64,000 nucleotides of DNA, taken from positions 563-64,562 of the forward strand of contig CAZPIN010000125.1 of the NCBI GenBank assembly GCA_964586735.1. Reading direction: 5' to 3'. Below are positions 18,494-60,925 of this stretch, piece by piece. The stretch comes from an uncultured Rhodobacterales bacterium. GTDB lineage: Bacteria; Pseudomonadota; Alphaproteobacteria; Rhodobacterales; CAZPXZ01. Below the pieces are notes generated by a model. It had not been told where the DNA came from, searched no databases, and saw only the letters and a program-made list of their open reading frames with translations. Position 1 is the first letter of the stretch, and each line of letters opens with the position of its first letter. Position numbers and translations under genes: made by a program.

Positions 18494-18801
18494 GGGTTGC
18501 CTCTGACCTCGGCGGCGCCGCGGACGGGCGTCGCTCGCGGCGCTCTTTGCTACCGCGCCCTGTACCCAAGGTAGTGCAAAACCACGCATGATTCCGCGCG
18601 CATGCCTTGCCGGAGGCTTCCGACATAGCCGGCCGCCGCGGTTTGGCAATGCTGGATTGCCGCAGAGTGCCTGTCCAGTCTGCCGCTTGCCAAAGCCGCA
18701 TACCGCCTTAAGGGGCAAACGCAGGTACTGGCTACGATGAATTGGCGCCAGTCAAGACTACACTGTTCCGGCGAAAGCGACTCGCGCGTTTCGGGACTGC
18801 C

Positions 18802-19110
18802 TCACACAGGCGCTCCGTTCCCCCAGCTCCCGTTGCCTTTCATCGCCTCGTCGATGCTGGGCGCCCTCAACAGCCGGATCCGCCAGCTGTCCAGATCCTC
18901 CTCCGACGCCGCCCGCAGCCGTTCATCCAGATCGTCTGGAACCTCGCCGAAACGCTCTTGGGCAATACCTAAGAGTACCTCGACTTTGCCTTCCGCCCAG
19001 CCTTTCGCTAGGCCCCGAGCCTCGCCCCGAGCCTCGCGTTCCGCAAGCAGACCCGGGGACAGCTGCTCTATCGCCATGTCCATCATCTCTTTACCTCTCT
19101 CGTTTCCCAA
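18802..19110 (-). CDS. Stand-alone DUF4351-like C-terminal-domain ORF (copy of the C-terminus of the upstream Rpn-like gene)
   Basis: It aligns end to end with the last ~100 aa of 19174..20232 ('GNERGKEMMDMAIEQLSPG...RFGEVPDDLDERLRAASEEDLDSW...EAMKGNGSWGNGAPV'). It is in the same frame as the upstream gene and is offset from it by 348 nt. Confidence 0.6.
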   Translation of the reverse strand: MGNERGKEMMDMAIEQLSPGLLAEREARGEARGLAKGWAEGKVEVLLGIAQERFGEVPDDLDERLRAASEEDLDSWRIRLLRAPSIDEAMKGNGSWGNGAPV

Positions 19111-19173
19111 AGCCTCAAGCGCCAGGCGGCGGCACCGCTCCGGCGGGAGCGCCTCAGGCGATTCGGGGCCACC

Positions 19174-20232
19174 TCACACTGGCGTCCCGTTTCCCCAGCT
19201 CCCGTTGCCTTTCATCGCCTCATCGATGTTGGGCGCGTCCAGCACCCGGTCCAGCCAGTCGTCGAGCTTCTCCTCAGACGCCGCTAGAAGCTGCGCCTCC
19301 AGATCACTCGGCTCTACGCCGAAACGCTTCCGGACAACGCGCAAGATCGACTCGACTTTGACTTCCGCCCGGCCCTCCGCCCGGACTTCAGCAAGCCGAC
19401 CCGGGGACAGCTGCTCTATCGCTATGTCCATCATCTCTTTACCTCTCTTGTTTCCCAAAGCCTCAAGCGCCAGGCGGCGGCACCGCGCATTGTCCTTCAG
19501 GCCGTTGACGATGTTAACAGCAATCGCCGTGCCTTTCAACTGCAGCTCCTCCATGATGTACCGATAGGCAAAGCCATACAGATCCCGTATCAGACCGTCG
19601 GTAACGTCCTTGCGGTTCTCCAGCCCAATCGCCACCAGCAGCGCCCAGAAATCGGGGTTCGCGTACAGCCTTTCCAAGGGTATCTCTCCCAGCAGAAGCA
19701 AATGCGTCGGCCCCATGCTGAAAAAGCCGCCCTCGAAGCCCATTGCCTTCAGTATCTCCTCGACGGTCGGCGGGACTCTGTCAGCGGCGGGGCCATGTAC
19801 CACCAGCCCCGCCAGCATCAGTATGGTCTTGCCTTCAAACGGGCCCTTCGGCCTGGACAGGTCTTCCGCCGCCAAGGCCGCATTGGCGCTAAGCTGCATC
19901 CGCGCCATCCGCTCGTAGTTGTGCTTGTGCTCCAAGACAGCGGCGAGGACAGCCTCGTCTGAAAGGTCGCCGACGAGGAGACCGTCCAGCTCCCGTCGCC
20001 GGCCGCCTTTGGTGATGACCGTACCGGACAGGAGCCGGACATTGTACAGTCGGCTGACCCGCGCTTTCGCCACCTCGACGATCATCCACATCAGCCCGCA
20101 AATGGACCCGGAGTCGCCGGTTGCGATGCGGAACGACGTGTCGTAGGGATGATGCTCGAAGTCCACCCTGAATGGAGGAGGGGACTCCTCCGGGCCTTGC
20201 GGCGATTCAGCGGGTTGTATTCTGATGGTCAT
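19174..20232 (-). CDS. Rpn/YhgA-like PD-(D/E)XK nuclease family protein with DUF4351-like C-terminal domain (paralog A)
   Basis: N-terminal 'HHPYDTSFRI' resembles the Rpn 'HDxxFK' motif. 'RELDGLLVGD...AAVLEHKHNYERMARMQL' resembles the Rpn 'D...hhhEhQS' nuclease core, with K in place of Q. The C-terminal 'RAEGRAEVKVESILRVVRKRFGVEPSDLEAQLLAASEEKLDDWLDRVL' has the DUF4351 pattern. Confidence 0.7.
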   Translation of the reverse strand: MTIRIQPAESPQGPEESPPPFRVDFEHHPYDTSFRIATGDSGSICGLMWMIVEVAKARVSRLYNVRLLSGTVITKGGRRRELDGLLVGDLSDEAVLAAVLEHKHNYERMARMQLSANAALAAEDLSRPKGPFEGKTILMLAGLVVHGPAADRVPPTVEEILKAMGFEGGFFSMGPTHLLLLGEIPLERLYANPDFWALLVAIGLENRKDVTDGLIRDLYGFAYRYIMEELQLKGTAIAVNIVNGLKDNARCRRLALEALGNKRGKEMMDIAIEQLSPGRLAEVRAEGRAEVKVESILRVVRKRFGVEPSDLEAQLLAASEEKLDDWLDRVLDAPNIDEAMKGNGSWGNGTPV

Positions 20233-20235
20233 TGG

Positions 20236-20604
20236 GAGTCTCCTCGTCCGGCTGCGAATCGGCGGAGTGCCGACTCTGGCAGCGAGGCAAATCTTCGTAC
20301 AGCTTCTGAGTCGATGTCAAATCGCGGCTAGAAAATTTTCACTAACACCTTGCCGGCAAAGGGCAAACTGCCGCAGCGCGTTGTTTTTAAGACCGTCTAA
20401 AAAGAGCGCCGAAACGGCACCTTCCCCGATTCGCGGGTGGAGGGTGCGAGGTGATTCGCTGCTGCCCGCGAGGCGATTCGCCGCCGCCCGGAGTGATTCG
20501 CCAAGGGTGATTCGCTGCTGGCCTGTGTCCATGGCGCGAGGTGATTCGCCGCTGCCCGAGGGGTGATTCGCTCGCCACCCGCAATCCTTCGCAGAGCGAT
20601 TCGC
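20236..20604 (+). repeat. Intergenic GANTC-dense region. Its core holds 8 same-strand copies of GATTCGC within degenerate ~22-bp units (gag-gtGATTCGCyGCTGCCCG)
   Basis: GATTCGC starts at 20428, 20453, 20475, 20495, 20509, 20543, 20565 and 20598. Additional GANTC sites lie at 20236 (GAGTC), 20256 (GAATC), 20272 (GACTC) and 20308 (GAGTC). Confidence 0.85.
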
Positions 20605-20685
20605 CGCTGTCAAGGGGCACCCCGCCCCCGGCTCCGGTCGCCAGAGCGTACCAGTCTGCCTGCTGCCGTTTCGTACAAATTGAAG

Positions 20686-20708
20686 GCCGTCGCGGCGGCG
20701 GCTTTTTT
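20686..20708 (+). terminator. Candidate intrinsic terminator (7-bp GC stem, 3-nt loop, T6)
   Basis: 'GCCGTCG-CGG-CGGCGGC' is followed by 'TTTTTT'. It is plus-strand oriented only, and no annotated plus-strand gene lies upstream of it. Confidence 0.4.
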
Positions 20709-21050
20709 GCCTCGGTCAGGGTACGGAGGTCCGTCGACGGAGCGGCATCCCATCAGCGTCGCGGGCACGGGCGCCGACGCGGAGTCCGAAACCACCATGC
20801 TGGAGTCCGTCCGCCAGCTGCATCGCAGCGGCTGGCAGGCGATGGTTCAGCCTAGCCGGGAAATTTCCCGCTGCTCCGCCGCCGCTGCGCTTAGCGACTG
20901 TGAGCCGTGATTCTCTCGGGACTGCGCAGCGTACAGAAGCCGTCTGAAGCCGCGGCAGCTGACCGCCGCCGCACTGGCCGTACTGACGGAGACGGCACCT
21001 CGGCGGCTGCGGCAGCCCGACTGCCTGCCATTGCCGCCGCACGGGGCGGG

Positions 21051-21079
21051 TTGACGTTCCTGCCGTTGTTTGCCATATT
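21051..21079 (+). promoter_or_regulatory. Candidate sigma70-type promoter of rpsB-tsf
   Basis: TTGACG-N17-CATATT, about 110 nt upstream of the rpsB start. Confidence 0.35.
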
Positions 21080-21189
21080 GCCTCCATTCCACACGCAGGC
21101 AACGGGACGGCTGCGCCTGCGCCGCCGTCCCTCCGGTTGTCCGGCCGCTGGCCGGATCGCGCCTGCGGAGGCAGAAACCGGAGGGTAAC

Positions 21190-22812
21190 TTGAACATTCC
21201 GCATTTCACCATGCGCCAGCTGCTGGAGGCTGGCGTGCATTTCGGCCATCGCACCGACCGCTGGAACCCCAAGATGGCCCAGTACATCTACGGGGCGCGA
21301 GGCGGCATCCACATCATCGACCTGACCCAGACCGTGCCTCTGCTGCACCAGGCGCTGGTGGCCATCCACCAGTGCGTGGCCAAGGGCGGCCGGCTGCTGA
21401 TGGTTGCCACCAAGCCCCAGGCTCGGGAGCCCATCCGTCAGGCGGCGGTGAGCGGCCAGCAGTTTTACATCAACAACCGCTGGCTGGGCGGCACGCTGAC
21501 CAACTGGAAGACCGTCTCGGCCTCGATCAACCGGCTGGTCGACCTGGAGAAGACGCTCGACAACCACGAGGCGGGGTTTTCCAAGAAGGAGCGCCTGCAG
21601 CTGGAGCGGCAGCGCGACAAGGTGGAGCTGGCCCTTGGCGGCATCCGCAACATGGGCACGCTGCCGGACATGCTGTTCGTGGTCGACGTCAACGAGAAGC
21701 GCATCGCCGTGGCGGAGGCTCGCAAGATCGGCATACCGGTGGTGGCCATCGTCGACACCAACTCCGACCCCACCGGCATCGACTACCCCATTCCCGGCAA
21801 CGACGACGCCACGCGGGCGGTAAGCCTGTACTGCGACCTCATCCTTGGCACGCTGATCGACGCTCTCGAAGTGCAGCTTGGCAGCCAGATGGAGGATCCT
21901 GGCGAGGCCAACGCGCCGGCGGGCGAGGCGGCGCTGAAGGAGGCGGCGGCTTCGGCTGGCGCCGATTCGCCGGCTGCCGCGGAGGAGGCTGTTGCCCAGT
22001 CGGCGGCTTCTCCGGTCGCGACGGCCGCTGTCGGCGCCGCGTCTCCACCAGCCGCGCCCGAGGTGTCTGCCGCCGCCGCAGCCGTGTCGCCGGTCGCGCC
22101 CGCTCCAGCGGATGCGCCCGCGCAGTTTGCGGCTGAGCCGGTTTCTGCTCCCGCGCCTGCAGCGCCTGTCGCATCGCCACCTGCAGTGGAGGCTCCAGCG
22201 GCCCCATCTCCCGCAGCGTCTCCAGCGGCCGAAGTCCCCGCGGCTGCGCCGCCAGCGGTTGAGCCGCCCCCGGCTCCCGCGCCTGCAGCGCCTGTCGCAT
22301 CGCCAACTGCAGTGGAGGATCCGGCGACCCCATCTCCCGCAGCGTCTCAAGCGGCCGAAGTTCCCGCGGCTGCGCCGCCAGCGGTTGAGCTGGTACCAGC
22401 CCCCGCGCCAGAAGCGCCCGTCACATCGCCACCCGCAGTGGAAGCCCCAGCGGTCCCATTTCACGCAGCGTCTCCAGCGGCCGAAGTCCCCGTGGCTGCG
22501 CCGCCAATGGTCGAGGCGGTACCAGCCTCCACGCCGGAAATGCCTTCCGCCGCACCGTCGACAGTGGAGGCTCCGGTGGTTCCATCTCCCGATTCGTCTA
22601 CTGCAGTTGAGGTTCCAGCGGCTCCATCTCCCTCTCCGTCTCCTGTGGTCGAAACCCCCGTGGCAGCGCCGCCAGCGGTGGAGTCCCAGTCGGCCACAGC
22701 GCCCGTCGGCGGCGTCGCGGACCCTGTGCAGTCGCCAGCCGCCGCGCCCGCTGCAGAGGAGGCGGCGCCGTCGCCAGCAACGGACGGCACCGCCGGGGAG
22801 GCATCCCAGTGA
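21190..22812 (+). CDS. rpsB: 30S ribosomal protein S2 with a ~290-aa Ala/Pro-rich repetitive C-terminal extension
   Basis: '[24 protein letters not shown]...' is the canonical S2 core. The start is TTG at 21190 after RBS 'ggaggg', or ATG at 21211. The tail begins near aa 260. Confidence 0.9.
22147..22690 (+). repeat. 126-bp (42-codon) tandem repeat, ~4 copies, inside the rpsB tail
   Basis: The string 'gctcccgcgcctgcagcgcctgtcgcatcgcca' recurs at 22147 and 22273. Diverged copies begin near 22399 and 22525. The peptide unit is '[38 protein letters not shown]..'. Confidence 0.85.
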
Positions 22813-35454: not shown

Positions 35455-35505
35455 AGCCGATTCGCAGCCGCCAGACGGCCGCCAGCAGAGCGGCGCATGC
35501 ATGGC
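35361..35505 (+). repeat. Left copy of an imperfect ~140-bp direct repeat (lpxB 3' end plus ~50 bp downstream)
   Basis: The 25-nt identical core 'tccatgcgggcggcgcgggcggtct' at 35383-35407 recurs at 37316-37340. The flanking sequence aligns with mismatches and indels. Confidence 0.8.
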
Positions 35506-35845: not shown

Positions 35846-36904
35846 ATGGCCTACCCGATGGGAGAGCAGCCGCGCCAGAATCAGGGCGGCGAAGAGACCA
35901 CTGAGACCGAGCGGCTGGAGGCATGGATGCAGGGCTGGCCGAGCCAGTTCTACGACGGCTACAGCTTCAGGATACTCAGCAACATGGAAACAGCGTTGGC
36001 GGTCATCGTTTACGCCGTGCGAAAAGCCGGAAAGCACAGGCTTGCAAAGAAGCTGGAGGGAGGCTCGCTGGTAATGGCTCCCACTCGCCTGGTCGGTGAA
36101 ACCCTGCGCCAGAGATACCGCGACCTTTCGTACAGGTGGAAGCCCAAAAGAAAAGGTTCTAACGAGATTCGGATTGACATTGAGGCCACCAGTGGCTCCG
36201 ACCAGCTGGTCACGGTCCGCTCGACGGACTACTCGGTTCAGGGAGCGTTGCAGGAGGCAGCTTCGCAGAAGAGGGTCAGCCGCCGCGCCCCCGGATTCAC
36301 GATGGTCATCAATTTCGGCCCCAGGGGTCTTCGGGTGTCCTGCGTGTTCGAGGAGATGTTTTCGGACTACGACGAGCTTGAGGGGCTCGGGCCTCGCAAC
36401 ATAACTGTCCAGCTGGACCTTATGGCGATGACGCTTGAGGAAATCCTTGCGGCATTCGACTGCCGTACCGCGTGTGTCCTTGGGATACTCCGCATCGCCA
36501 ACAGGCCGCGGGAGTTTCGCAAGGCGGACATTTTCAGGGTGATCAAACTGGCGGCGGGGGACTGGGAGCGCGAGCAGATGGTCGCTCTCTGCATTGCATG
36601 CCGGTTCAAGGGAGTGTACTATAGGTGGGCGCTGCAGGCGCTGGACGAAGCAGGAATAGGGAGAGACAACGTGGAAGGCATGATGGAAATCCGGGAACGG
36701 GAGGCCAAGGCCGAGGGCGTGGCCGATGTGCTGCTGCGGCAAGTACGGGAGAAGTTCAAGGACATATCTGACCGGAGGGAGGCGCAGGTGCGGTCAGCTA
36801 CGCTTGAGCAGCTGGAGGAGTGGGCGGTGCGCCTTCTGCATGCCCGCGACATCGATGCGCTGTTCGCCGGAAGCGGCCGGGCTAGGAGCCAGCCTCAGGG
36901 ATAG
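35846..36904 (+). CDS. Divergent Rpn-like family protein with DUF4351-like C-terminal domain (paralog B)
   Basis: The ATG at 35846 follows RBS 'aaaggagaaag'. The C-terminal 'REREAKAEGVADVLLRQVREKFKDISDRREAQVRSATLEQLEEWAVRLLHARDIDALF' has the DUF4351 pattern. 'FYDGYSFRIL' resembles the Rpn N-terminal motif, but the nuclease core motif is not clear. Confidence 0.55.
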   Translation: MAYPMGEQPRQNQGGEETTETERLEAWMQGWPSQFYDGYSFRILSNMETALAVIVYAVRKAGKHRLAKKLEGGSLVMAPTRLVGETLRQRYRDLSYRWKPKRKGSNEIRIDIEATSGSDQLVTVRSTDYSVQGALQEAASQKRVSRRAPGFTMVINFGPRGLRVSCVFEEMFSDYDELEGLGPRNITVQLDLMAMTLEEILAAFDCRTACVLGILRIANRPREFRKADIFRVIKLAAGDWEREQMVALCIACRFKGVYYRWALQALDEAGIGRDNVEGMMEIREREAKAEGVADVLLRQVREKFKDISDRREAQVRSATLEQLEEWAVRLLHARDIDALFAGSGRARSQPQG

Positions 36905-37000
36905 CCGTCGGCGGCTTGGCTGCGGTAGCGGCGACTTACTCTCTCCTGCTGCTCTGGGCAGCGGCCGACGCTGGACGAGGCAGGAATTGGGAGAGACAAC

Positions 37001-37234
37001 GTGGAAGGCATGATGGAAATCCGAGAACGGGAGGCCAAGGCCGAGGGCAAGGCCGAGTTGCTGCTCCAACTTGTACGGCAGAAGTTCAAGGACATATCCG
37101 ACCGGAGGGAGGCACAGGTGAAGTCGGCCTCGCTTGAGCAGCTGGAGAATTGGGCGGCGCGTCTGCTGAGCCCTCGCGATCTCGATTCGCTGTTTGGCGG
37201 GAGTGGCCGGGCAAAGCGCCAGCCGCAGGGGTAG
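37001..37234 (+). CDS. Stand-alone DUF4351-like C-terminal-domain ORF (copy of the paralog B C-terminus)
   Basis: 'EGMMEIREREAKAEGKAELLLQLVRQKFKDISDRREAQVKSASLEQLENWAARLL' closely matches the last 77 aa of 35846..36904. It is offset by 330 nt and is in the same frame. Confidence 0.55.
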   Translation: MEGMMEIREREAKAEGKAELLLQLVRQKFKDISDRREAQVKSASLEQLENWAARLLSPRDLDSLFGGSGRAKRQPQG

Positions 37235-47306: not shown

Positions 47307-47687
47307 CTAGCTCGCTACCCGCTTCCGGCGTGGGGACCGGGCGGTAACTTCATTGAGGGCAGGGTCGCTGTCGGTGTCGTCGTCGAACACCGCGTTGATA
47401 CTGCTGGCCGTGAGTATCCGGCACAGCCAGGTGTCAATTTGCTGCTTCGAAGCGGTGCGCACCTGCGCCTGCCTGTCTTCGGGCACGCTCCCATACTTGC
47501 TCGTTGCCAGCATCAGGAAGTTCTCGAACTTGGCCTTGGCCCAGCCCTTATCCCATCCCTCGGACCAGTACTCGCCCCAGTCCTCGGCCACGCCCCTAGC
47601 CATGGTTTGCTTCCAGTCTTCGGCCCGAAGCGCCTCTAACGACGTGTCCATAATCTCCTCATTTGCCTTCGGTGCCGCAACACCCAC
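47307..47687 (-). CDS. DUF4351-like C-terminal-domain ORF (single module)
   Basis: 'EEIMD...WSEGWDKGWAKAKFENFLMLATSKYGSVPEDRQAQVRTASKQQIDTWLCRILTASSINAVF'. It has a GTG start. The N-terminal 'MGVAAP' is shared with 48160..48726. Confidence 0.5.
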   Translation of the reverse strand: MGVAAPKANEEIMDTSLEALRAEDWKQTMARGVAEDWGEYWSEGWDKGWAKAKFENFLMLATSKYGSVPEDRQAQVRTASKQQIDTWLCRILTASSINAVFDDDTDSDPALNEVTARSPRRKRVAS

Positions 47688-48159: not shown

Positions 48160-48726
48160 CTACTTGGCCGTACGCTTCAGCGGTGGTGACTTGACGGGAA
48201 CATCATTGACGGCGTGGCCGTTGCCTGCGTCTTCGTCAAACACCGCATTGAGACTTGTAGCAGTGAGTATCCGGGGTAGCCAGTATTCAATCTGCGGTAC
48301 CGAAGAGGCGCGCACCAGTTCCTCTATGTGACCTGGCACTCGCCGATACTTGCTCCTTGCCAGTATCAGGAAGTCCTCGGCCTTGGCTTCGGACCTGGCC
48401 TTGGCCTCGTTCTGGGTCATGCCCCTGTCATCGTCGAACACCAGGCTGAGACTGGGAGCCCTGAGAACCCGGAGCAGCCAGTTGTCAAGCTGCGGTATCC
48501 AAGCGGAGCGTACCTGCGCCTCTCTGTCCTCCGGCACTCGACCAAACTTGCTCCTCGCCAGCATCAGGAAGTCCTCGGTTTTGGCCGTGGCCTCGGCCTG
48601 TTCCATGCCATCGTCTGCGACTACCTCATAGGCTACGGCCATAATCTCTTCGACCAACGGCTTCGATGCCACTTTGTCCGACGTCTCCATGGTCTCCTCC
48701 ATCACTTCCGGTCCTGCGACGCCCAT
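48160..48726 (-). CDS. ORF made of two tandem DUF4351-like modules
   Basis: Module 1 is 'TEDFLMLARSKFGRVPEDREAQVRSAWIPQLDNWLLRVLRAPSLSLVF'. Module 2 is 'AEDFLILARSKYRRVPGHIEELVRASSVPQIEYWLPRILTATSLNAVF'. Confidence 0.5.
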   Translation of the reverse strand: MGVAGPEVMEETMETSDKVASKPLVEEIMAVAYEVVADDGMEQAEATAKTEDFLMLARSKFGRVPEDREAQVRSAWIPQLDNWLLRVLRAPSLSLVFDDDRGMTQNEAKARSEAKAEDFLILARSKYRRVPGHIEELVRASSVPQIEYWLPRILTATSLNAVFDEDAGNGHAVNDVPVKSPPLKRTAK

Positions 48727-48803: not shown

Positions 48804-49910
48804 CTAGTCGGTGCGCTTGCCGCTGCCGTTGAACACCGCCTCGATGTCGGGCGCGGCATACAGGCGATCAAGCCAGTCATCGACCTGCTCCTGCGAAGCG
48901 TTGCGCACCTGGTCTGCCAAATGGTCAGGGACGCTCTGAAACCGCCTTTCGGCAGCCCGCAGAAATGTCACACTTCGGCCTTCGGCCAGACCTTCGGCCC
49001 AAAACATCTCGAATGACGGGTCCATAATCTCCTCCACCATGTCCTGTCCCAGAACGTTCGCAATCGCCTTCTCGATTCGAACGCGCGAAACGCCTTGCTC
49101 GGCGAGTGCACCTACAGCATACTGCCTCTGGTTCTTCGTGTAAAGCCCGAGCCCCTCTGCAATATATTCAAGGTCCTTGTCACTCAGCGGCGGTCCGTCA
49201 CGGGTTCCCCTTGCAACCAGCAGCGGCGCACCCGCCGCCGCGTTCTTGGTGAGTTCCTGCCGGCGAAGGTTCCCCAGGTAGAAGTGGACGACCTTCTCCG
49301 CCGTCAGCGTTTCCGCCTTTTCCTCGGGTGTCAGTTTCGCCAGCTCGGCCAGAGATTTCGGGCGGGTCTGCGTCGCCTTCCCGTTCAGTACAATAACGCC
49401 ATTGAGGATTGGCACTTCGCCCCATGTCGTTACTCCATCTTCCACCAGCTGGCGGGTAAGACGGAACGCGGAGCTGACCACCTGAAGCTCGGCCAGCTTC
49501 GTCTTGTCCGACTTGTGCTCATAGGCGCTGACCACGGGCCTCCCGTCGGTGTGCTTTGCCAGCAGGCCCAAATCGGCCTCGTCGATGAGGAAGTCTCCGC
49601 CCTCAACGCGAGTGGGAAGCGGGCGGGGATGAAAATTCCTGTCGAGATTCCGGTAGACCACACCCGCCAGCGTGAGGCGAAGCAGCTCCCAAAGGGTATC
49701 GGGGAAATTGGCGAGCCAGCGGATGTTGGCATCCCACGGGTGGGCCCTTCTCCTTGGTGGCTTCTCTGTTCCAGCCTGTTCCTGCTCCGGCTGGTTCGAC
49801 TCGTGTGTCTGTTCTGGCATGGCCATGCCTCCTCTGTCTGGGGTGACGCTTGGCATCGCCGCCCGGCGAATCACTCCGCCGCCGCGGCCATGCTCGTTTG
49901 TGCAGTCCAC
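48804..49910 (-). CDS. Rpn/YhgA-like PD-(D/E)XK nuclease family protein with DUF4351-like C-terminal domain (paralog C)
   Basis: 'HPWDANIRWLANFPDTLWELL' is an Rpn-like N-terminal motif. 'DEADLGLLAKHTDGRPVVSAYEHKSDKTKLAELQV' fits the D...EhK core. The C-terminus reads 'WAEGLAEGRSVTFLRAAERRFQSVPDHLADQVRNASQEQVDDWLDRLYAAPDIEAVF'. Confidence 0.7.
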   Translation of the reverse strand: MDCTNEHGRGGGVIRRAAMPSVTPDRGGMAMPEQTHESNQPEQEQAGTEKPPRRRAHPWDANIRWLANFPDTLWELLRLTLAGVVYRNLDRNFHPRPLPTRVEGGDFLIDEADLGLLAKHTDGRPVVSAYEHKSDKTKLAELQVVSSAFRLTRQLVEDGVTTWGEVPILNGVIVLNGKATQTRPKSLAELAKLTPEEKAETLTAEKVVHFYLGNLRRQELTKNAAAGAPLLVARGTRDGPPLSDKDLEYIAEGLGLYTKNQRQYAVGALAEQGVSRVRIEKAIANVLGQDMVEEIMDPSFEMFWAEGLAEGRSVTFLRAAERRFQSVPDHLADQVRNASQEQVDDWLDRLYAAPDIEAVFNGSGKRTD

Positions 49911-59878: not shown

Positions 59879-60925
59879 ATGCTTCTGTTTCTCGCCAGAC
59901 GACTGGGCGTGATGGCCCTGACCGTCCTCTGCCTTTCTGCGGTGGTTTTCTTCCTGACAAACCTGCATCCCAATCTTGAGAAGCTGGCGAAGACCCAGGG
60001 AAACAACCGCATGACCGACGCGCAGGTGGTCACCTGGCTGGAGAACCACGGCTACGCCCGGCCCTGGATCGTGCGCTACGGCGAATGGCTGGGACTCGCC
60101 CCGGGCTGGCAGCACGTCGACTCGGATGGAGTAGTGAGCGGGCGGTGCATACGGCTTGGCGCGCCCGCCGTCGAGGAAAACCAATACTGCGGCGTACTGC
60201 AGGGTACCTTTGGGTGGTCGACGGTGTTCAGGGAAACCGTCGGCGAGGTGATTCTGCGCAAGCTGGGACTGACCGGCATCCTCATGTGGTGGGTGATGGT
60301 GGTCATGGTGCCCACCGCCCTGGTGGTTGGCGTCATGGCGGGCATGCGCGAAGGCACCCGGCTCGACCGCTCGCTGTCCACCTTCTCGATCGCCACGACG
60401 GCGACGCCCGAGTACGTGTCGGGCGTCATCATGATCGTGGTGTTTTCCAGCTCGATCGTCGGCCTCAAGTGGTTCAAGGGGTCGGCGGCCTCGGCCATGG
60501 ACGAGGTCACCTTCGTCAACTTCACGCTGCCGGTCATGACCATGGCGCTCTACGGCATGGGCTACATCGCCCGCATGAGCCGCGCCTCCATGGCGGAGGT
60601 CATGACCGCGCAGTACATCCGCACCGCCCGGCTCAAGGGCGTCAAGTTCAGCAGCGTCGTGATTCGCCACGCGCTGCGCAACGCCCTGATCGCTCCGTTT
60701 ACGGTGATCATGCTCCAGTTTCCGTGGCTGCTCACCGGGGTGGTGATCGTCGAAACGCTTTTCAACTACAAGGGATTCGGCTGGACTCTGGTGCAGGCGG
60801 CGACTGGCAACGACGTCGAGCTGCTGCTGGGATGCTCGGTGGTGGCCGTTATCGTGGTGCTGGTAACGCAGCTGATTTCGGACGTAGGCTACGTCTACCT
60901 CAATCCGCGAATCAGGGTGACCTGA
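59879..60925 (+). CDS. ABC transporter permease (DppB/OppB-like)
   Basis: Multi-TM protein with the EAA-loop region 'YIRTARLKGVKFSSVVIRHALRNAL'. Confidence 0.9.
   Translation: MLLFLARRLGVMALTVLCLSAVVFFLTNLHPNLEKLAKTQGNNRMTDAQVVTWLENHGYARPWIVRYGEWLGLAPGWQHVDSDGVVSGRCIRLGAPAVEENQYCGVLQGTFGWSTVFRETVGEVILRKLGLTGILMWWVMVVMVPTALVVGVMAGMREGTRLDRSLSTFSIATTATPEYVSGVIMIVVFSSSIVGLKWFKGSAASAMDEVTFVNFTLPVMTMALYGMGYIARMSRASMAEVMTAQYIRTARLKGVKFSSVVIRHALRNALIAPFTVIMLQFPWLLTGVVIVETLFNYKGFGWTLVQAATGNDVELLLGCSVVAVIVVLVTQLISDVGYVYLNPRIRVT

What the first reader, a model, noticed from the sequence alone, without database searches (positions are those of the whole stretch)
20236..20708. Array of eight same-strand GATTCGC repeats (12 GANTC sites in ~370 bp) upstream of Rpn-like paralog A, ending at an orphan intrinsic terminator
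The ~960-bp gap between paralog A (start at 20232, minus strand) and rpsB holds a degenerate ~22-bp unit, '(c)gag-g(t/c)GATTCGC(c/t)GCTGCCCG'. It repeats 8 times with spacings of 25, 22, 20, 14, 34, 22 and 33 bp. Four more GANTC sites lie between the array and the paralog A start codon. GANTC is the CcrM methylation and GcrA-responsive motif of alphaproteobacteria. A back-of-envelope estimate from base composition predicts fewer than one site per ~180 bp, so the array is strongly enriched. Downstream, a clean plus-strand hairpin followed by T6 (20686-20708) has no annotated gene to terminate, so the repeats may be transcribed as a small RNA or leader. Possible roles are methylation- or cell-cycle-gated control of the Rpn-like gene, an iteron-like protein-binding array, or a structured or sponge RNA.
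Basis: partly seen in the sequence, partly recalled or inferred. Interest (0 to 1): 0.6.

Follow-up and report, generated by a model that had tools for sequence, protein, structure and literature searches.

The report
Eight GcrA/CcrM-type boxes beside a nuclease gene
A short stretch of non-coding DNA next to a toxin-like nuclease gene carries eight copies of the sequence (C/T)GATTCGC, which matches the published best binding site of the alphaproteobacterial cell-cycle regulator GcrA and contains the CcrM methylation site, so it is most likely a methylation-dependent control region rather than a small-RNA gene.

Summary
There are eight same-strand GATTCGC at 20428-20604 with the stated spacings, and 12 GANTC in 367 bp against about 1.5 expected.

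The part under constraint is only the 8-9-mer (G)YGATTCGC. The core is invariant in 8 of 8 units, while the flanks are about 34% diverged. That core is five TGATTCG and three CGATTCG, which is the published top GcrA consensus (TGATTCG / YGAKTCG) around a CcrM site.

The same box forms clusters of 4-6 copies, in either orientation, in the dnaG-rpoD spacer of five alphaproteobacteria that my pattern scan happened to fetch. This points to a host DNA-level box.

One sense-strand copy lies upstream of each of the three Rpn-like paralogs in the window, 22 and 40 nt before the start codons of A and B and 388 nt before that of C. The paralog A promoter and 5' end form the second-densest GANTC cluster in the 64 kb.

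The array sits in a strain-specific island between the PFOR genes and rpsB and is absent from relatives. It grew by duplication of a 90-bp block.

The plus-strand "orphan terminator" is weak evidence. An equally good minus-strand terminator lies between the array and the gene. Neither strand folds better than shuffled sequence.

Best reading (about 0.45): a methylation/GcrA-coupled cis-regulatory array. Methylation, binding and transcription remain untested.

The parts
20425..20611 (+). Array of eight (G)YGATTCGC boxes. Cores start at 20428, 20453, 20475, 20495, 20509, 20543, 20565 and 20598. Five are TGATTCG and three are CGATTCG.
   Evidence: The core is invariant in 8 of 8 units, while flanks differ from the column majority at 34% of cells.
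20443..20520 (+). Block L of the array (units 2-5). It is one copy of a roughly 90-bp duplicated super-unit.
   Evidence: blastn found 80% identity over 79 nt to 20533-20609.
20533..20609 (+). Block R of the array: units 6 and 7, a decayed unit, and unit 8.
   Evidence: Core columns are identical at 26/28, non-core columns at 37/51, Fisher P = 0.027.
20581..20592 (+). Decayed ninth unit (GCAATCCTTCGC). It is the counterpart of unit 4, and a GA->CC change has destroyed its GANTC.
   Evidence: alignment
20395..20421 (-). Terminator-like hairpin (7 pairs) plus T5 on the minus strand. It lies between the array and the promoter region of Rpn-like A.
   Evidence: (-13.7 kcal/mol, z = -1.5)
20320..20410 (.). 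A+T-richer stretch (about 53% G+C in a 66% G+C window). It lies upstream of the -35-like hexamer of Rpn-like A.
20291..20320 (-). Candidate sigma-70-type promoter of Rpn-like A: TTGACA (20320-20315), an 18-nt spacer, then GAAGAT (20296-20291), with an inferred TSS near 20284. The spacer holds TGAGTCG (20307-20313 on +), at about -26.
   Evidence: My own reading. It is below the threshold of the scan, so it is inferred only. The TGAGTCG is listed.
20254..20261 (-). Inverted ninth box, CGATTCGC, on the sense strand of the Rpn-like A leader. It lies 22 nt before the ATG and about +26 from the inferred TSS.
   Evidence: (inverted repeats I1-I3)
20236..20312 (.). Four further GANTC sites (20236, 20256, 20272, 20308) in the promoter and leader. 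Together with 20111, 20183 and 20204 they make the second-densest GANTC 200-bp window of the 64 kb.
19174..20232 (-). Rpn-like paralog A (352 aa). It has a D83...E101-H-K103 nuclease-type motif and a DUF4351-like C-terminus.
18802..19110 (-). Stand-alone DUF4351-like ORF directly downstream of paralog A. It is 66% identical to the C-terminus of A and looks like an RpnS-type small protein.
   Evidence: The arrangement is described for E. coli rpnE-ypaA in PMC10400941.
20584..20613 (-). Candidate minus-strand promoter at the right end of the array: CTTGACA (20614-20608), a 17/18-nt spacer that contains box 8 (centre about -22), then GAAGGA/AAGGAT.
   Evidence: My own reading; the CTTGACA is listed. 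Speculative, and below the threshold.
20682..20708 (+).
   Evidence: -15 kcal/mol, z = -1.5
20902..20918 (+). Outlying degenerate unit, GAGCCGTGATTCTCTCG, about 300 bp to the right of the array.
   Evidence: family D3
18720..21043 (.). Strain-specific island between the PFOR genes and the rpsB promoter. It holds the DUF4351 ORF, Rpn-like A, the array and about 430 bp of further non-coding DNA.
   Evidence: In the closest relative, L120 (95% RpsB identity), homology starts only at 21044. L121-L124 carry other genes at this position.
49866..49873 (-). TGATTCGC on the sense strand of the leader of Rpn-like paralog B (CDS 48804-49826, minus), 40 nt before its ATG. It is the best match to the array's weight matrix anywhere outside the array.
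35458..35465 (+). CGATTCGC on the sense strand 388 nt upstream of Rpn-like paralog C (CDS 35846-36904, plus), and 5 nt after the lpxB stop codon.

Best explanation
The array is a cluster of eight (originally nine) binding and methylation boxes of the host's CcrM/GcrA system. Each unit carries a GANTC, the CcrM target, embedded in (G)YGATTCGC, the sequence context that GcrA binds best.

GcrA is a monomeric cofactor that rides on sigma-70 RNA polymerase and prefers N6-methylated boxes close to promoters. The array probably works together with three more boxes in the promoter and leader of the adjacent gene: TGAGTCG at about -26, AGAGTCG at about +11 and CGATTCG at about +26. In this model it acts as a landing pad and methylation sensor. 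That would tie transcription of the toxic Rpn-like nuclease gene to the methylation and replication state of the chromosome. It might do the same for a short minus-strand transcript that starts at the right end of the array and stops at the terminator at 20421-20395.

Shown here:
- The boxes, their excess over chance, and their identity with the published GcrA consensus.
- The higher conservation of the core than of the flanks.
- The recurrence of the same box in clusters at rpoD in other alphaproteobacteria.
- One copy upstream of each Rpn-like paralog.

Inferred:
- That this genome has ccrM and gcrA.
- That the sites are methylated and bound.
- Where the promoters lie.
- That binding changes transcription, and in which direction.
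For: (1) All eight cores are YGATTCG, five TGATTCG and three CGATTCG. [quoted passage not shown] Wu 2023 (PMC9976885) gives YGAKTCG, with boxes at -20, -30 or +5 to +30 and monomeric binding.

(2) Constraint is confined to the 8-9-mer. There are 0 changes in 56 core cells against 34% in the flanks. Between the two duplicated blocks the core is identical at 26/28 and the rest at 37/51, P = 0.027. That suits a small monomer site, not a 22-bp iteron or long RNA pairing.

(3) Independent comparative support comes from the 13 alphaproteobacterial loci among the 119 fetched by the pattern scan. Five of them have the cluster in the dnaG-rpoD spacer. There, 25 of 26 GANTC are YGATTCG, in both orientations. 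None of the 106 non-alpha loci shows this.

(4) The array is the densest YGAKTCG cluster in the window, with 8 per 200 bp against 3 for the next best. The densest GANTC window outside it is the adjacent promoter and 5' end of the gene, with 7 sites.

(5) The best weight-matrix hit outside the array is in the leader of paralog B. All three paralogs have a sense-strand box upstream.

(6) CcrM and GcrA are reported as well conserved across Alphaproteobacteria (PMC7987155). RpsB places the window in that class.
Against: - No methylome, ChIP or transcript data exist for this organism.
- ccrM and gcrA are not in the 64 kb. I tested this only with sequences recalled from memory, and the rest of the genome could not be reached.
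- Seven of the eight boxes lie 110-290 bp upstream of the inferred promoter of the gene, outside the -30 to +30 range in which GcrA boxes are known to act.
- Both promoters are my own reading and failed the scan's threshold.
- In Brevundimonas no extended-motif preference was found, so the YGAKTCG rule may not be universal.
- The array is strain-specific and has a plain duplication history, and one unit has decayed. A by-product of slippage is therefore not excluded.
- Conservation extends one base either side of the published 7-mer (G at -2, C at +8). GcrA data do not explain this.
Confidence: 0.45

Rival explanations
1. The array is a neutral minisatellite. A roughly 22-bp segment that happened to contain one host box was amplified by slippage and then by a 90-bp block duplication inside a fast-evolving accessory island. 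The boxes may bind GcrA or be methylated incidentally, but the array as such has no selected function.
For: - The two-level duplication structure and one decayed unit.
- The array is absent from every relative and from the metagenome and viral scans.
- There are no other copies in the 64 kb.
- Neither strand has a significant RNA structure.
Against: - The core is invariant in 8 of 8 units while the flanks have diverged 34%. The 177 bp leave no room for many lost units.
- Core against non-core identity between the blocks gives P = 0.027.
- The neighbouring non-repeat DNA is itself a GANTC cluster.
- The chance that a random repeat core equals one of the four YGAKTCG 7-mers on either strand is about 5e-4 (my estimate).
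Confidence: 0.2
2. The array is an operator or iteron-like array for a different sequence-specific DNA-binding protein, such as the Rpn-like protein itself, its small DUF4351 partner, or an unknown host factor. In this model the eight upstream sites and the inverted site in the leader give cooperative or looping repression of the toxin gene.
For: - The layout of direct repeats, an A+T-richer stretch and an inverted partial copy in the leader of the adjacent gene resembles iteron-plus-operator arrangements.
- GYGANTCGC is a near-palindrome (my reading).
- Box positions are phased at 11.3 bp, with R = 0.84 and a scan-corrected P of about 0.014.
Against: - There is no rep gene and no DnaA or CtrA boxes.
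- Phasing is absent at 10.5 bp (R = 0.20).
- Paralogs only 24-26% identical share the same box, which points to a common host factor.
- The same box clusters at rpoD in unrelated genera that have no Rpn-like gene nearby.
Confidence: 0.15
3. The array acts as RNA. One version is a plus-strand sRNA of about 300 nt ending at 20708 that displays eight GAUUCGC motifs and sponges a factor which also binds the Rpn-like leaders. The other is a minus-strand RNA (promoter at about 20613, terminator at 20421-20395) whose GCGAAUC units pair with the leaders. That would be an antitoxin RNA laid out like type III toxin-antitoxin loci: repeats, then terminator, then toxin.
For: - Terminator-like hairpins sit after the array on both strands.
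- The leader copies are on the sense strand in all three paralogs.
- The leader of A is 15/19 complementary to a minus-strand unit, including the Shine-Dalgarno sequence (I3).
- Unit 4 and the leader of B share 13 nt exactly.
Against: - No promoter passes the scan on either strand.
- Folding z-scores are -1.2 and +1.2.
- On the plus strand the motifs are predicted to pair with one another, not to sit in loops.
- Duplex energies with the leaders are no better than with random 80-mers.
- Units are irregular (14-34 nt apart) and diverged, unlike type III antitoxin repeats.
- There is no Rfam match.
- At rpoD loci the box occurs in either orientation, which an RNA motif would not tolerate.
Confidence: 0.1

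Closest known systems
GcrA boxes at CcrM-methylated promoters of Caulobacter crescentus (for example PcsM with a box at -20, and PmipZ with boxes at +4 and +12)
   Same: The core sequence is identical (TGATTCG / YGAKTCG around GANTC). Boxes lie in the -35/-10 spacer and in the early transcribed region of the adjacent gene. The host class is the same, Alphaproteobacteria.
   Different: [quoted passage not shown] Here there are eight in a row 110-290 bp upstream plus three near the promoter, all in a strain-specific island next to a toxin-like gene. Binding and methylation are untested here.
Clusters of YGATTCGC boxes in the dnaG-rpoD spacer of Rhodobacterales and Pannonibacter
   Same: The 8-9-mer is the same, with 4-6 copies within about 60-130 bp at irregular spacing of 12-40 bp, directly upstream of a gene.
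   Different: Those clusters are conserved at a core housekeeping gene and mix both orientations. The window's array is all one orientation, is larger, arose by recent duplication, and is not conserved.
Multi-GANTC promoters occluded from CcrM by MucR (for example Caulobacter P169 with four GANTC; PMC5172544)
   Same: Several GANTC lie in one promoter region, so a regulator and the methylase may compete for them.
   Different: No MucR site or gene was examined here. In those promoters the GANTC are not repeats of one unit.
Dam GATC clusters read by SeqA, OxyR or Lrp in enterobacteria (oriC, agn43, pap). This comparison rests on my own knowledge.
   Same: Both are dense clusters of methylation sites that turn replication-dependent hemimethylation into a regulatory signal. 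SeqA needs sites on one face of the helix, and the boxes here are phased at about 11.3 bp.
   Different: The methylase, motif and readers all differ. Alphaproteobacteria have no SeqA.
Iterons of theta-replicating plasmids
   Same: Both have direct repeats of about 22 bp next to an A+T-richer stretch, with an inverted partial copy in the promoter of the adjacent gene.
   Different: There is no Rep protein and no DnaA box. Only 8-9 bp of the unit is conserved, and the locus is chromosomal.
Type III toxin-antitoxin loci (ToxIN and relatives)
   Same: The order of repeat array, terminator and toxin gene on one strand is the same.
   Different: Repeats there are near-identical 34-45-nt units cut by an endoRNase toxin. 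Here the units are irregular and diverged, and the toxin is a PD-(D/E)XK-type nuclease with its own protein antitoxin domain.

Membership tests
GcrA box / CcrM-methylated cis element | GANTC core (the CcrM target) | tested here: met
   All eight units plus the leader copy contain GATTC.
GcrA box / CcrM-methylated cis element | Extended context YGAKTCG (best: TGATTCG) | tested here: met
   8 of 8 units match, five TGATTCG and three CGATTCG. The consensus comes from PMC4647560 and PMC9976885.
GcrA box / CcrM-methylated cis element | Box close to a sigma-70 promoter (about -20, about -30, or +5 to +30) | tested here: inconclusive
   The promoters are only my reading and are below the scan threshold. 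On that reading the gene's own promoter has boxes at about -26, +11 and +26, and box 8 lies at about -22 of a candidate array-internal promoter. Boxes 1-7 lie 110-260 bp from the gene's TSS.
GcrA box / CcrM-methylated cis element | The genome encodes CcrM and GcrA | not testable with these tools
   Neither was found in the 64 kb with sequences recalled from memory. The source genome was not retrievable. This is inferred only from the alphaproteobacterial affiliation and from the literature.
GcrA box / CcrM-methylated cis element | N6-adenine methylation of the sites and GcrA occupancy | not testable with these tools
   This needs a SMRT or Nanopore methylome and ChIP.
Plasmid-type iterons / origin | An adjacent rep initiator gene and DnaA boxes | tested here: not met
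   The adjacent gene is Rpn-like. There is no DnaA box with up to 2 mismatches in 20233-21189, where about 1 is expected by chance.
Plasmid-type iterons / origin | A whole repeat unit of about 17-22 bp is conserved and phased with the helix | tested here: not met
   Only 8-9 bp is conserved. R = 0.20 at 10.5 bp, and the best period is 11.3 bp.
Type III toxin-antitoxin RNA repeats | Near-identical tandem units of constant length upstream of an endoRNase toxin, separated from it by a terminator | tested here: not met
   A terminator-like site is present. But spacing is 14-34 nt, flanks are 34% diverged, and the gene is a PD-(D/E)XK-type Rpn-like protein.
Genome-wide REP/BIME-like element | Many dispersed copies of the unit in intergenic regions | tested here: not met
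   The 19-mer with up to 3 mismatches is found only in the array. The weight-matrix scan gives no other array. Only 64 kb of the genome could be tested.
Protein-sponge sRNA (CsrB/RsmZ/CrcZ type) | A discrete transcript with its own promoter and terminator, and motifs exposed in loops | tested here: inconclusive
   A terminator-like site is present. No promoter was found, the motifs are predicted to be paired (mean unpaired probability 0.23), and the fold z-score is -1.2. No transcript data exist.
Rpn / YhgA-like nuclease (the adjacent gene) | Pfam PF04754 N-terminal nuclease domain | tested here: inconclusive
   Paralogs A and B give no hit. Paralog C scores 19.7 bits, E = 7e-4, just under the cut-off of 21. 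A D...E-H-K motif is conserved in the alignment. The low-confidence model (pLDDT 61) has its best, non-significant matches to restriction-endonuclease-fold nucleases.
Rpn / YhgA-like nuclease (the adjacent gene) | C-terminal DUF4351 (RpnS) domain, optionally repeated as a separate small gene downstream | tested here: met
   DUF4351 scores 27.2 bits in C, above the cut-off, and 18.6 in A, below it. Stand-alone DUF4351-like ORFs follow A, B and C. The arrangement is described in PMC10400941.

The most novel reading that the evidence does not exclude
A mobile toxin/defence cassette (the Rpn-like nuclease plus its DUF4351 partner) has built an eight-box array of the host's optimal GcrA/CcrM sites. 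The array would read the chromosome's methylation and replication state as a switch. It could fire the nuclease only when methylation is normal, or release it when CcrM or GcrA are perturbed, for example by phage. It could also act as a local sink for GcrA-RNA polymerase. The same box, clustered upstream of rpoD across alphaproteobacterial orders, would then mark a so far undescribed feedback between GcrA and the sigma factor it rides on.
Probability: 0.2. Interest if true: 0.65.

Novelty: new variant of a known kind. Interest (0 to 1): 0.45.

Why it matters
GcrA/CcrM control has been described as one or two boxes close to a promoter. A tandem array of eight optimal boxes would be an extreme case. 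It would offer a natural test of whether box number tunes GcrA recruitment or makes a promoter sharply dependent on methylation.

Its position next to a toxic Rpn-like nuclease in a strain-specific island suggests that accessory or defence genes can plug into the host's epigenetic cell-cycle circuit.

The side finding may be of wider interest than the array itself. Clusters of the same box upstream of rpoD in several genera suggest that the primary sigma factor gene is a conserved target of this system.

Tried and rejected
- **Protein-coding repeat.** Rejected. The spacings are not multiples of 3, there is no codon-position G+C signal across 20440-20680, and all ORFs in 20233-21043 look like high-GC noise and have no family hits.
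- **Known RNA family.** Rfam finds nothing in the array. The only match nearby is a weak one to the rpsB leader model at 21090-21199.
- **Stable RNA structure.** Not found.
- **Antisense pairing energy with the leaders.** No better than random segments. duplexfold is a poor measure in 66% G+C DNA (one search timed out).
- **Genome-wide search for similar arrays.**
  - The metagenome scan returned chance two-copy matches in coding DNA and regular repeats.
  - The viral scans returned nothing.
  - blastn against plasmids found nothing.
- **Contexts of the close homologues P0001-P0004 and of the window's own proteins.** Not on record. The cluster look-up gave no accessions. P0129 gave only a 1.2-kb contig.
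- **Remnants of the genes that occupy this position in relatives.** None found.
- **Shared non-coding modules among the three paralog upstream regions.** None beyond the box.
- **Iteron origin.** No DnaA or CtrA boxes.
- **CTTGACA as a promoter marker.** 7 in the window against 4 expected, not significant.
Full report
**Observation.** The sequence is as described.
- GATTCGC occurs eight times on the + strand between 20428 and 20604, with spacings of 25, 22, 20, 14, 34, 22 and 33.
- The window as a whole has 42 copies against 16 expected. Eight in 177 bp is far beyond the background rate (P about 1e-13).
- GANTC is not enriched in the window overall: 261 found and 261 expected, or one per 245 bp.
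- Twelve GANTC sites fall in 20236-20602. Four of them are outside the repeat, between the array and the ATG of the minus-strand gene at 20232 (P about 3e-4 for those four alone).
- Tandem Repeats Finder sees only 2.7 copies of a 22-bp unit, because the array is degenerate.
- The plus-strand hairpin plus T6 at 20686-20708 is there. The region has four terminator-like sites against 1.5 +/- 1.3 in shuffles, so this one is not distinctive.
- One of the other sites is an equally good minus-strand hairpin plus T5 at 20421-20395, directly between the array and the gene.

**Anatomy of the array.**
- Aligned on the core, the units read c.gagg(t/c)-GATTCGC-(c/t)gc(t/c)gccc.
- Information content falls off sharply outside (G)YGATTCGC. 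The seven core positions are invariant in all eight units, while the eight positions on each side differ from the column majority in 34% of cells.
- The array has a history. A block of about 90 bp holding four units (20443-20520) is duplicated at 20533-20609 with 80% identity.
- In the right-hand block one unit has decayed (TGATTCGC to TCCTTCGC, about 20585). Individual units are therefore dispensable.
- Between the two blocks the core columns are identical at 26 of 28 and the others at 37 of 51 (one-sided Fisher P = 0.027).
- Box positions are phased at 11.3 bp (R = 0.84, scan-corrected P about 0.014) but not at 10.5 bp.
- There is no codon periodicity across the array, no credible ORF anywhere in 20233-21043 and no Rfam match.
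- Neither strand folds better than shuffled sequence (z = -1.2 and +1.2).

**Surroundings.**
- The gene to the left (19174-20232, minus strand) has only four detectable homologues among 5.8 billion proteins.
- It has a conserved D...E-H-K motif and a weak DUF4351 C-terminus.
- A paralog in the window (C, 35846-36904) scores above threshold for DUF4351 and just below threshold for the YhgA-like Transposase_31 domain. 'Rpn-like' is therefore a fair label, though membership of the N-terminal domain is not proven.
- Each of the three paralogs (A; B at 48804-49826; C) is followed by stand-alone DUF4351-like ORFs. This is the arrangement described for E. coli rpn toxin genes and their RpnS antitoxin proteins (PMC10400941).
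- Syntenic loci from relatives show that the PFOR-rpsB gap is a variable island.
  - In the closest relative (95% RpsB identity), homology to the window begins only at 21044, at the rpsB -35 hexamer.
  - More distant relatives carry a Band_7 gene or an unrelated hypothetical gene there.
  - None has the Rpn-like gene or the array.

**What the core is.** The conserved 7-mer is YGATTCG in all eight units, five TGATTCG and three CGATTCG.
- Haakonsen et al. 2015 derived the GcrA-binding consensus in Caulobacter as 'TGATTCG or, more broadly, YGAKTCK'. They showed that the bases flanking GANTC and its middle base set GcrA affinity and activation (PMC4647560).
- Wu et al. give YGAKTCG. They describe monomeric binding and boxes centred near -20 or -30, or at +5 to +30 (PMC9976885; PMC5887438).
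- The array is therefore eight copies of the best known GcrA/CcrM box, not just GANTC. That only 8-9 bp is constrained fits a small monomer site.

- Thirteen of the 119 loci are alphaproteobacterial.
- In five of them the GATTCGC cluster sits in the dnaG-rpoD spacer, 30-300 nt upstream of rpoD. These are a Roseovarius MAG, a Rhodobacterales MAG, Pseudogemmobacter sonorensis and two Pannonibacter species.
- In those five spacers, 25 of 26 GANTC sites are YGATTCG, most of them GATTCGC. This includes the 11 sites that the search pattern did not select for.
- The boxes occur in either orientation relative to rpoD.
- None of the 106 non-alphaproteobacterial loci shows this.
- So (G)YGATTCGC is a recurrent, multi-copy, orientation-independent box at a core promoter region in several alphaproteobacterial genera. 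That points to a conserved host factor reading double-stranded DNA.
- I found no paper in the library that mentions GANTC together with rpoD and dnaG.

**Link to the Rpn-like genes.**
- A ninth box, inverted, lies on the sense strand of the leader of paralog A (CGATTCGC, 20261-20254), 22 nt before the ATG.
- The best match to the array's weight matrix anywhere else in the 128 kb of both strands is on the sense strand of the leader of paralog B (GGAGTGATTCGCC, identical over 13 nt to unit 4).
- Paralog C has CGATTCGCAGCCG 388 nt upstream of its start.
- At the background rate of about 2.4e-4 per position and strand (counted), a box in both 60-nt leaders of A and B has a chance of about 2e-4. 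This estimate is post hoc.
- The densest 200-bp GANTC window in the 64 kb is the array itself (8 sites). The next densest is the adjacent 20111-20310 (7 sites), which is the promoter and 5' end of paralog A.
- By my own reading, which is below the threshold of the promoter scan, that promoter is TTGACA (20320-20315), 18 nt, then GAAGAT (20296-20291). It would have TGAGTCG in the spacer at about -26, AGAGTCG at about +11 and the CGATTCG box at about +26. All three are within or near the ranges reported for GcrA boxes.
- A second CTTGACA at 20614-20608 has box 8 in its spacer at about -22. It could drive a minus-strand transcript through the array to the terminator at 20421-20395. This is speculative.

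**Mechanism proposed.**
- The array and the promoter-proximal boxes form a CcrM-methylated, GcrA-read control region.
- It couples expression of the toxin-like nuclease to the methylation and replication state of the host chromosome.
- The eight upstream boxes act as a landing pad, or as a methylation-dependent amplifier.
- The box identity, its excess, its constraint and its recurrence elsewhere are shown here. Methylation, binding, promoter positions and the sign of the effect are all inferred.
- Weaknesses are that most boxes lie outside the -30 to +30 range, and that ccrM and gcrA could not be checked. The tblastn search of the window used recalled sequences and found nothing, and the rest of the genome was unreachable.
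- Further weaknesses are that the extended-motif rule was not seen in Brevundimonas, and that the array is strain-specific with an ordinary duplication history.

**Rivals.**
- *Neutral minisatellite carrying a host box (0.2).* The invariant core, the neighbouring non-repeat GANTC cluster and the exact match to the GcrA optimum count against it. The duplication structure and lack of conservation count for it.
- *Operator or iteron-like array for another protein (0.15).* It fits the layout of direct repeats, an A+T-richer stretch and an inverted copy in the leader, and the near-palindrome GYGANTCGC. But there is no rep gene and no DnaA or CtrA box. Paralogs only 24-26% identical share the box, and the box recurs at rpoD.
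- *RNA-level roles, either a plus-strand sponge or a minus-strand antisense or type-III-like antitoxin (0.1).* They have terminators in the right places and sense-strand leader copies. They lack a promoter, significant structure, exposed motifs and distinctive pairing energy. They are also hard to square with orientation-independence at rpoD.

**Verdict.**
The iteron and sRNA/terminator ones are not.
- I classify the feature as a new variant of a known kind: an unusually large tandem cluster of GcrA/CcrM boxes attached to an accessory toxin-like gene.
- Interest is moderate, and everything functional still needs a methylome, transcript ends and binding assays.

Noticed in passing
L003:4440-5000, L032:4560-4800, L033:3130-3900, L115:6500-7330, L111:7060-7330: In five alphaproteobacteria (a Roseovarius MAG, a Rhodobacterales MAG, two Pannonibacter species and Pseudogemmobacter) the dnaG-rpoD spacer carries 4-6 GANTC sites. 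Of 26 sites, 25 are in the YGATTCG(C) context, and they occur in both orientations, 30-300 nt upstream of rpoD. This suggests rpoD is a conserved target of the CcrM/GcrA system. No paper in the library holds GANTC, rpoD and dnaG together.
   Followed up: partly
window 18802-19110, 36443-37207, 47307-47687, 48160-48726: Each of the three Rpn-like paralogs (A 19174-20232, B 48804-49826, C 35846-36904) is followed by one or two stand-alone DUF4351-like small ORFs. One of them (48160-48726) holds two copies of the domain. This looks like the separate RpnS-type antitoxin genes described for E. coli rpnE-ypaA.
   Followed up: partly
window 21190-22812 (repeats at 22129-22645): rpsB encodes a 540-aa protein. 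A normal S2 domain is followed by an Ala/Pro-rich tail of about 290 aa built from 3.7 copies of a 126-nt (42-aa) repeat. Relatives have tails of different lengths (410, 380 and 399 aa in total).
   Followed up: partly
window 18720-21043; L120, L121, L123: The gap between the PFOR (2-oxoacid:ferredoxin oxidoreductase) genes and rpsB is a hot spot for accessory DNA. It holds an Rpn-like cassette here, Band_7 plus a 98-aa protein in L121 and L122, and a 229-aa hypothetical in L123 and L124. The contig of the closest relative (L120) breaks 130 nt upstream of the rpsB promoter.
   Followed up: yes
whole window: YGAKTCG is enriched window-wide (96 found against 53 +/- 7 expected, still about 86 without the array), although GANTC as such is at expectation (261 vs 261). 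In addition, 31 of 34 GATTCGC outside the array are preceded by C or T. This could reflect codon usage or selection for the GcrA context.
   Followed up: no
window 60502-60680 (-): A full-length match to Rfam RF02647 (Ruegeria cis52 sRNA) scores 96.5 bits against a gathering score of 56.
   Followed up: no
window 21044-21199; L120, L121, L123: The rpsB promoter (TTGACG, 17 nt, CATATT at 21051-21079) and the start of its leader (CCATTCCACACGC...) are conserved across relatives. The leader gives a sub-threshold match to Rfam rpsB (RF01815, 27.4 bits, E = 0.004).
   Followed up: partly
window 20965-20988 and 21033-21056: A 24-nt direct repeat (79% identity) duplicates the sequence around the rpsB -35 hexamer 68 bp upstream, near the right edge of the island. 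It may be a trace of the insertion event.
   Followed up: no
L012, L017, L052, L067, L107, L010: Several Helicobacteraceae MAG contigs carry multiple irregular clusters of GATTCGC, up to four clusters on one 8-kb stretch. They are unrelated in taxon to the window and their nature is unknown.
   Followed up: no
L116:7438-7493; L004:979-1057; L108:6823-6864: Other alphaproteobacterial box clusters turned up. One has three boxes about 470-530 nt upstream of rne (RNase E) in Methylocapsa. One is a 36-bp tandem repeat alternating GGGTGATTCGC and GGGTGATTCGG in Hasllibacter. One has four TGATTCG in an A+T-rich spacer in a Ferrovibrionaceae MAG, with flanks (GAGGGTGATTCGC) much like the window's unit.
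   Followed up: partly
window 19000-19110 vs 19340-19470: The 3' end of Rpn-like A and the downstream DUF4351 ORF share a near-identical stretch of about 80 nt (…CAGCTGCTCTATCGC.ATGTCCATCATCTCTTTACCTCTCT.GTTTCCCAAAGCCTCAAGCGCCAGGCGGCGGCACCGC). This indicates a recent partial duplication or gene conversion.
   Followed up: no
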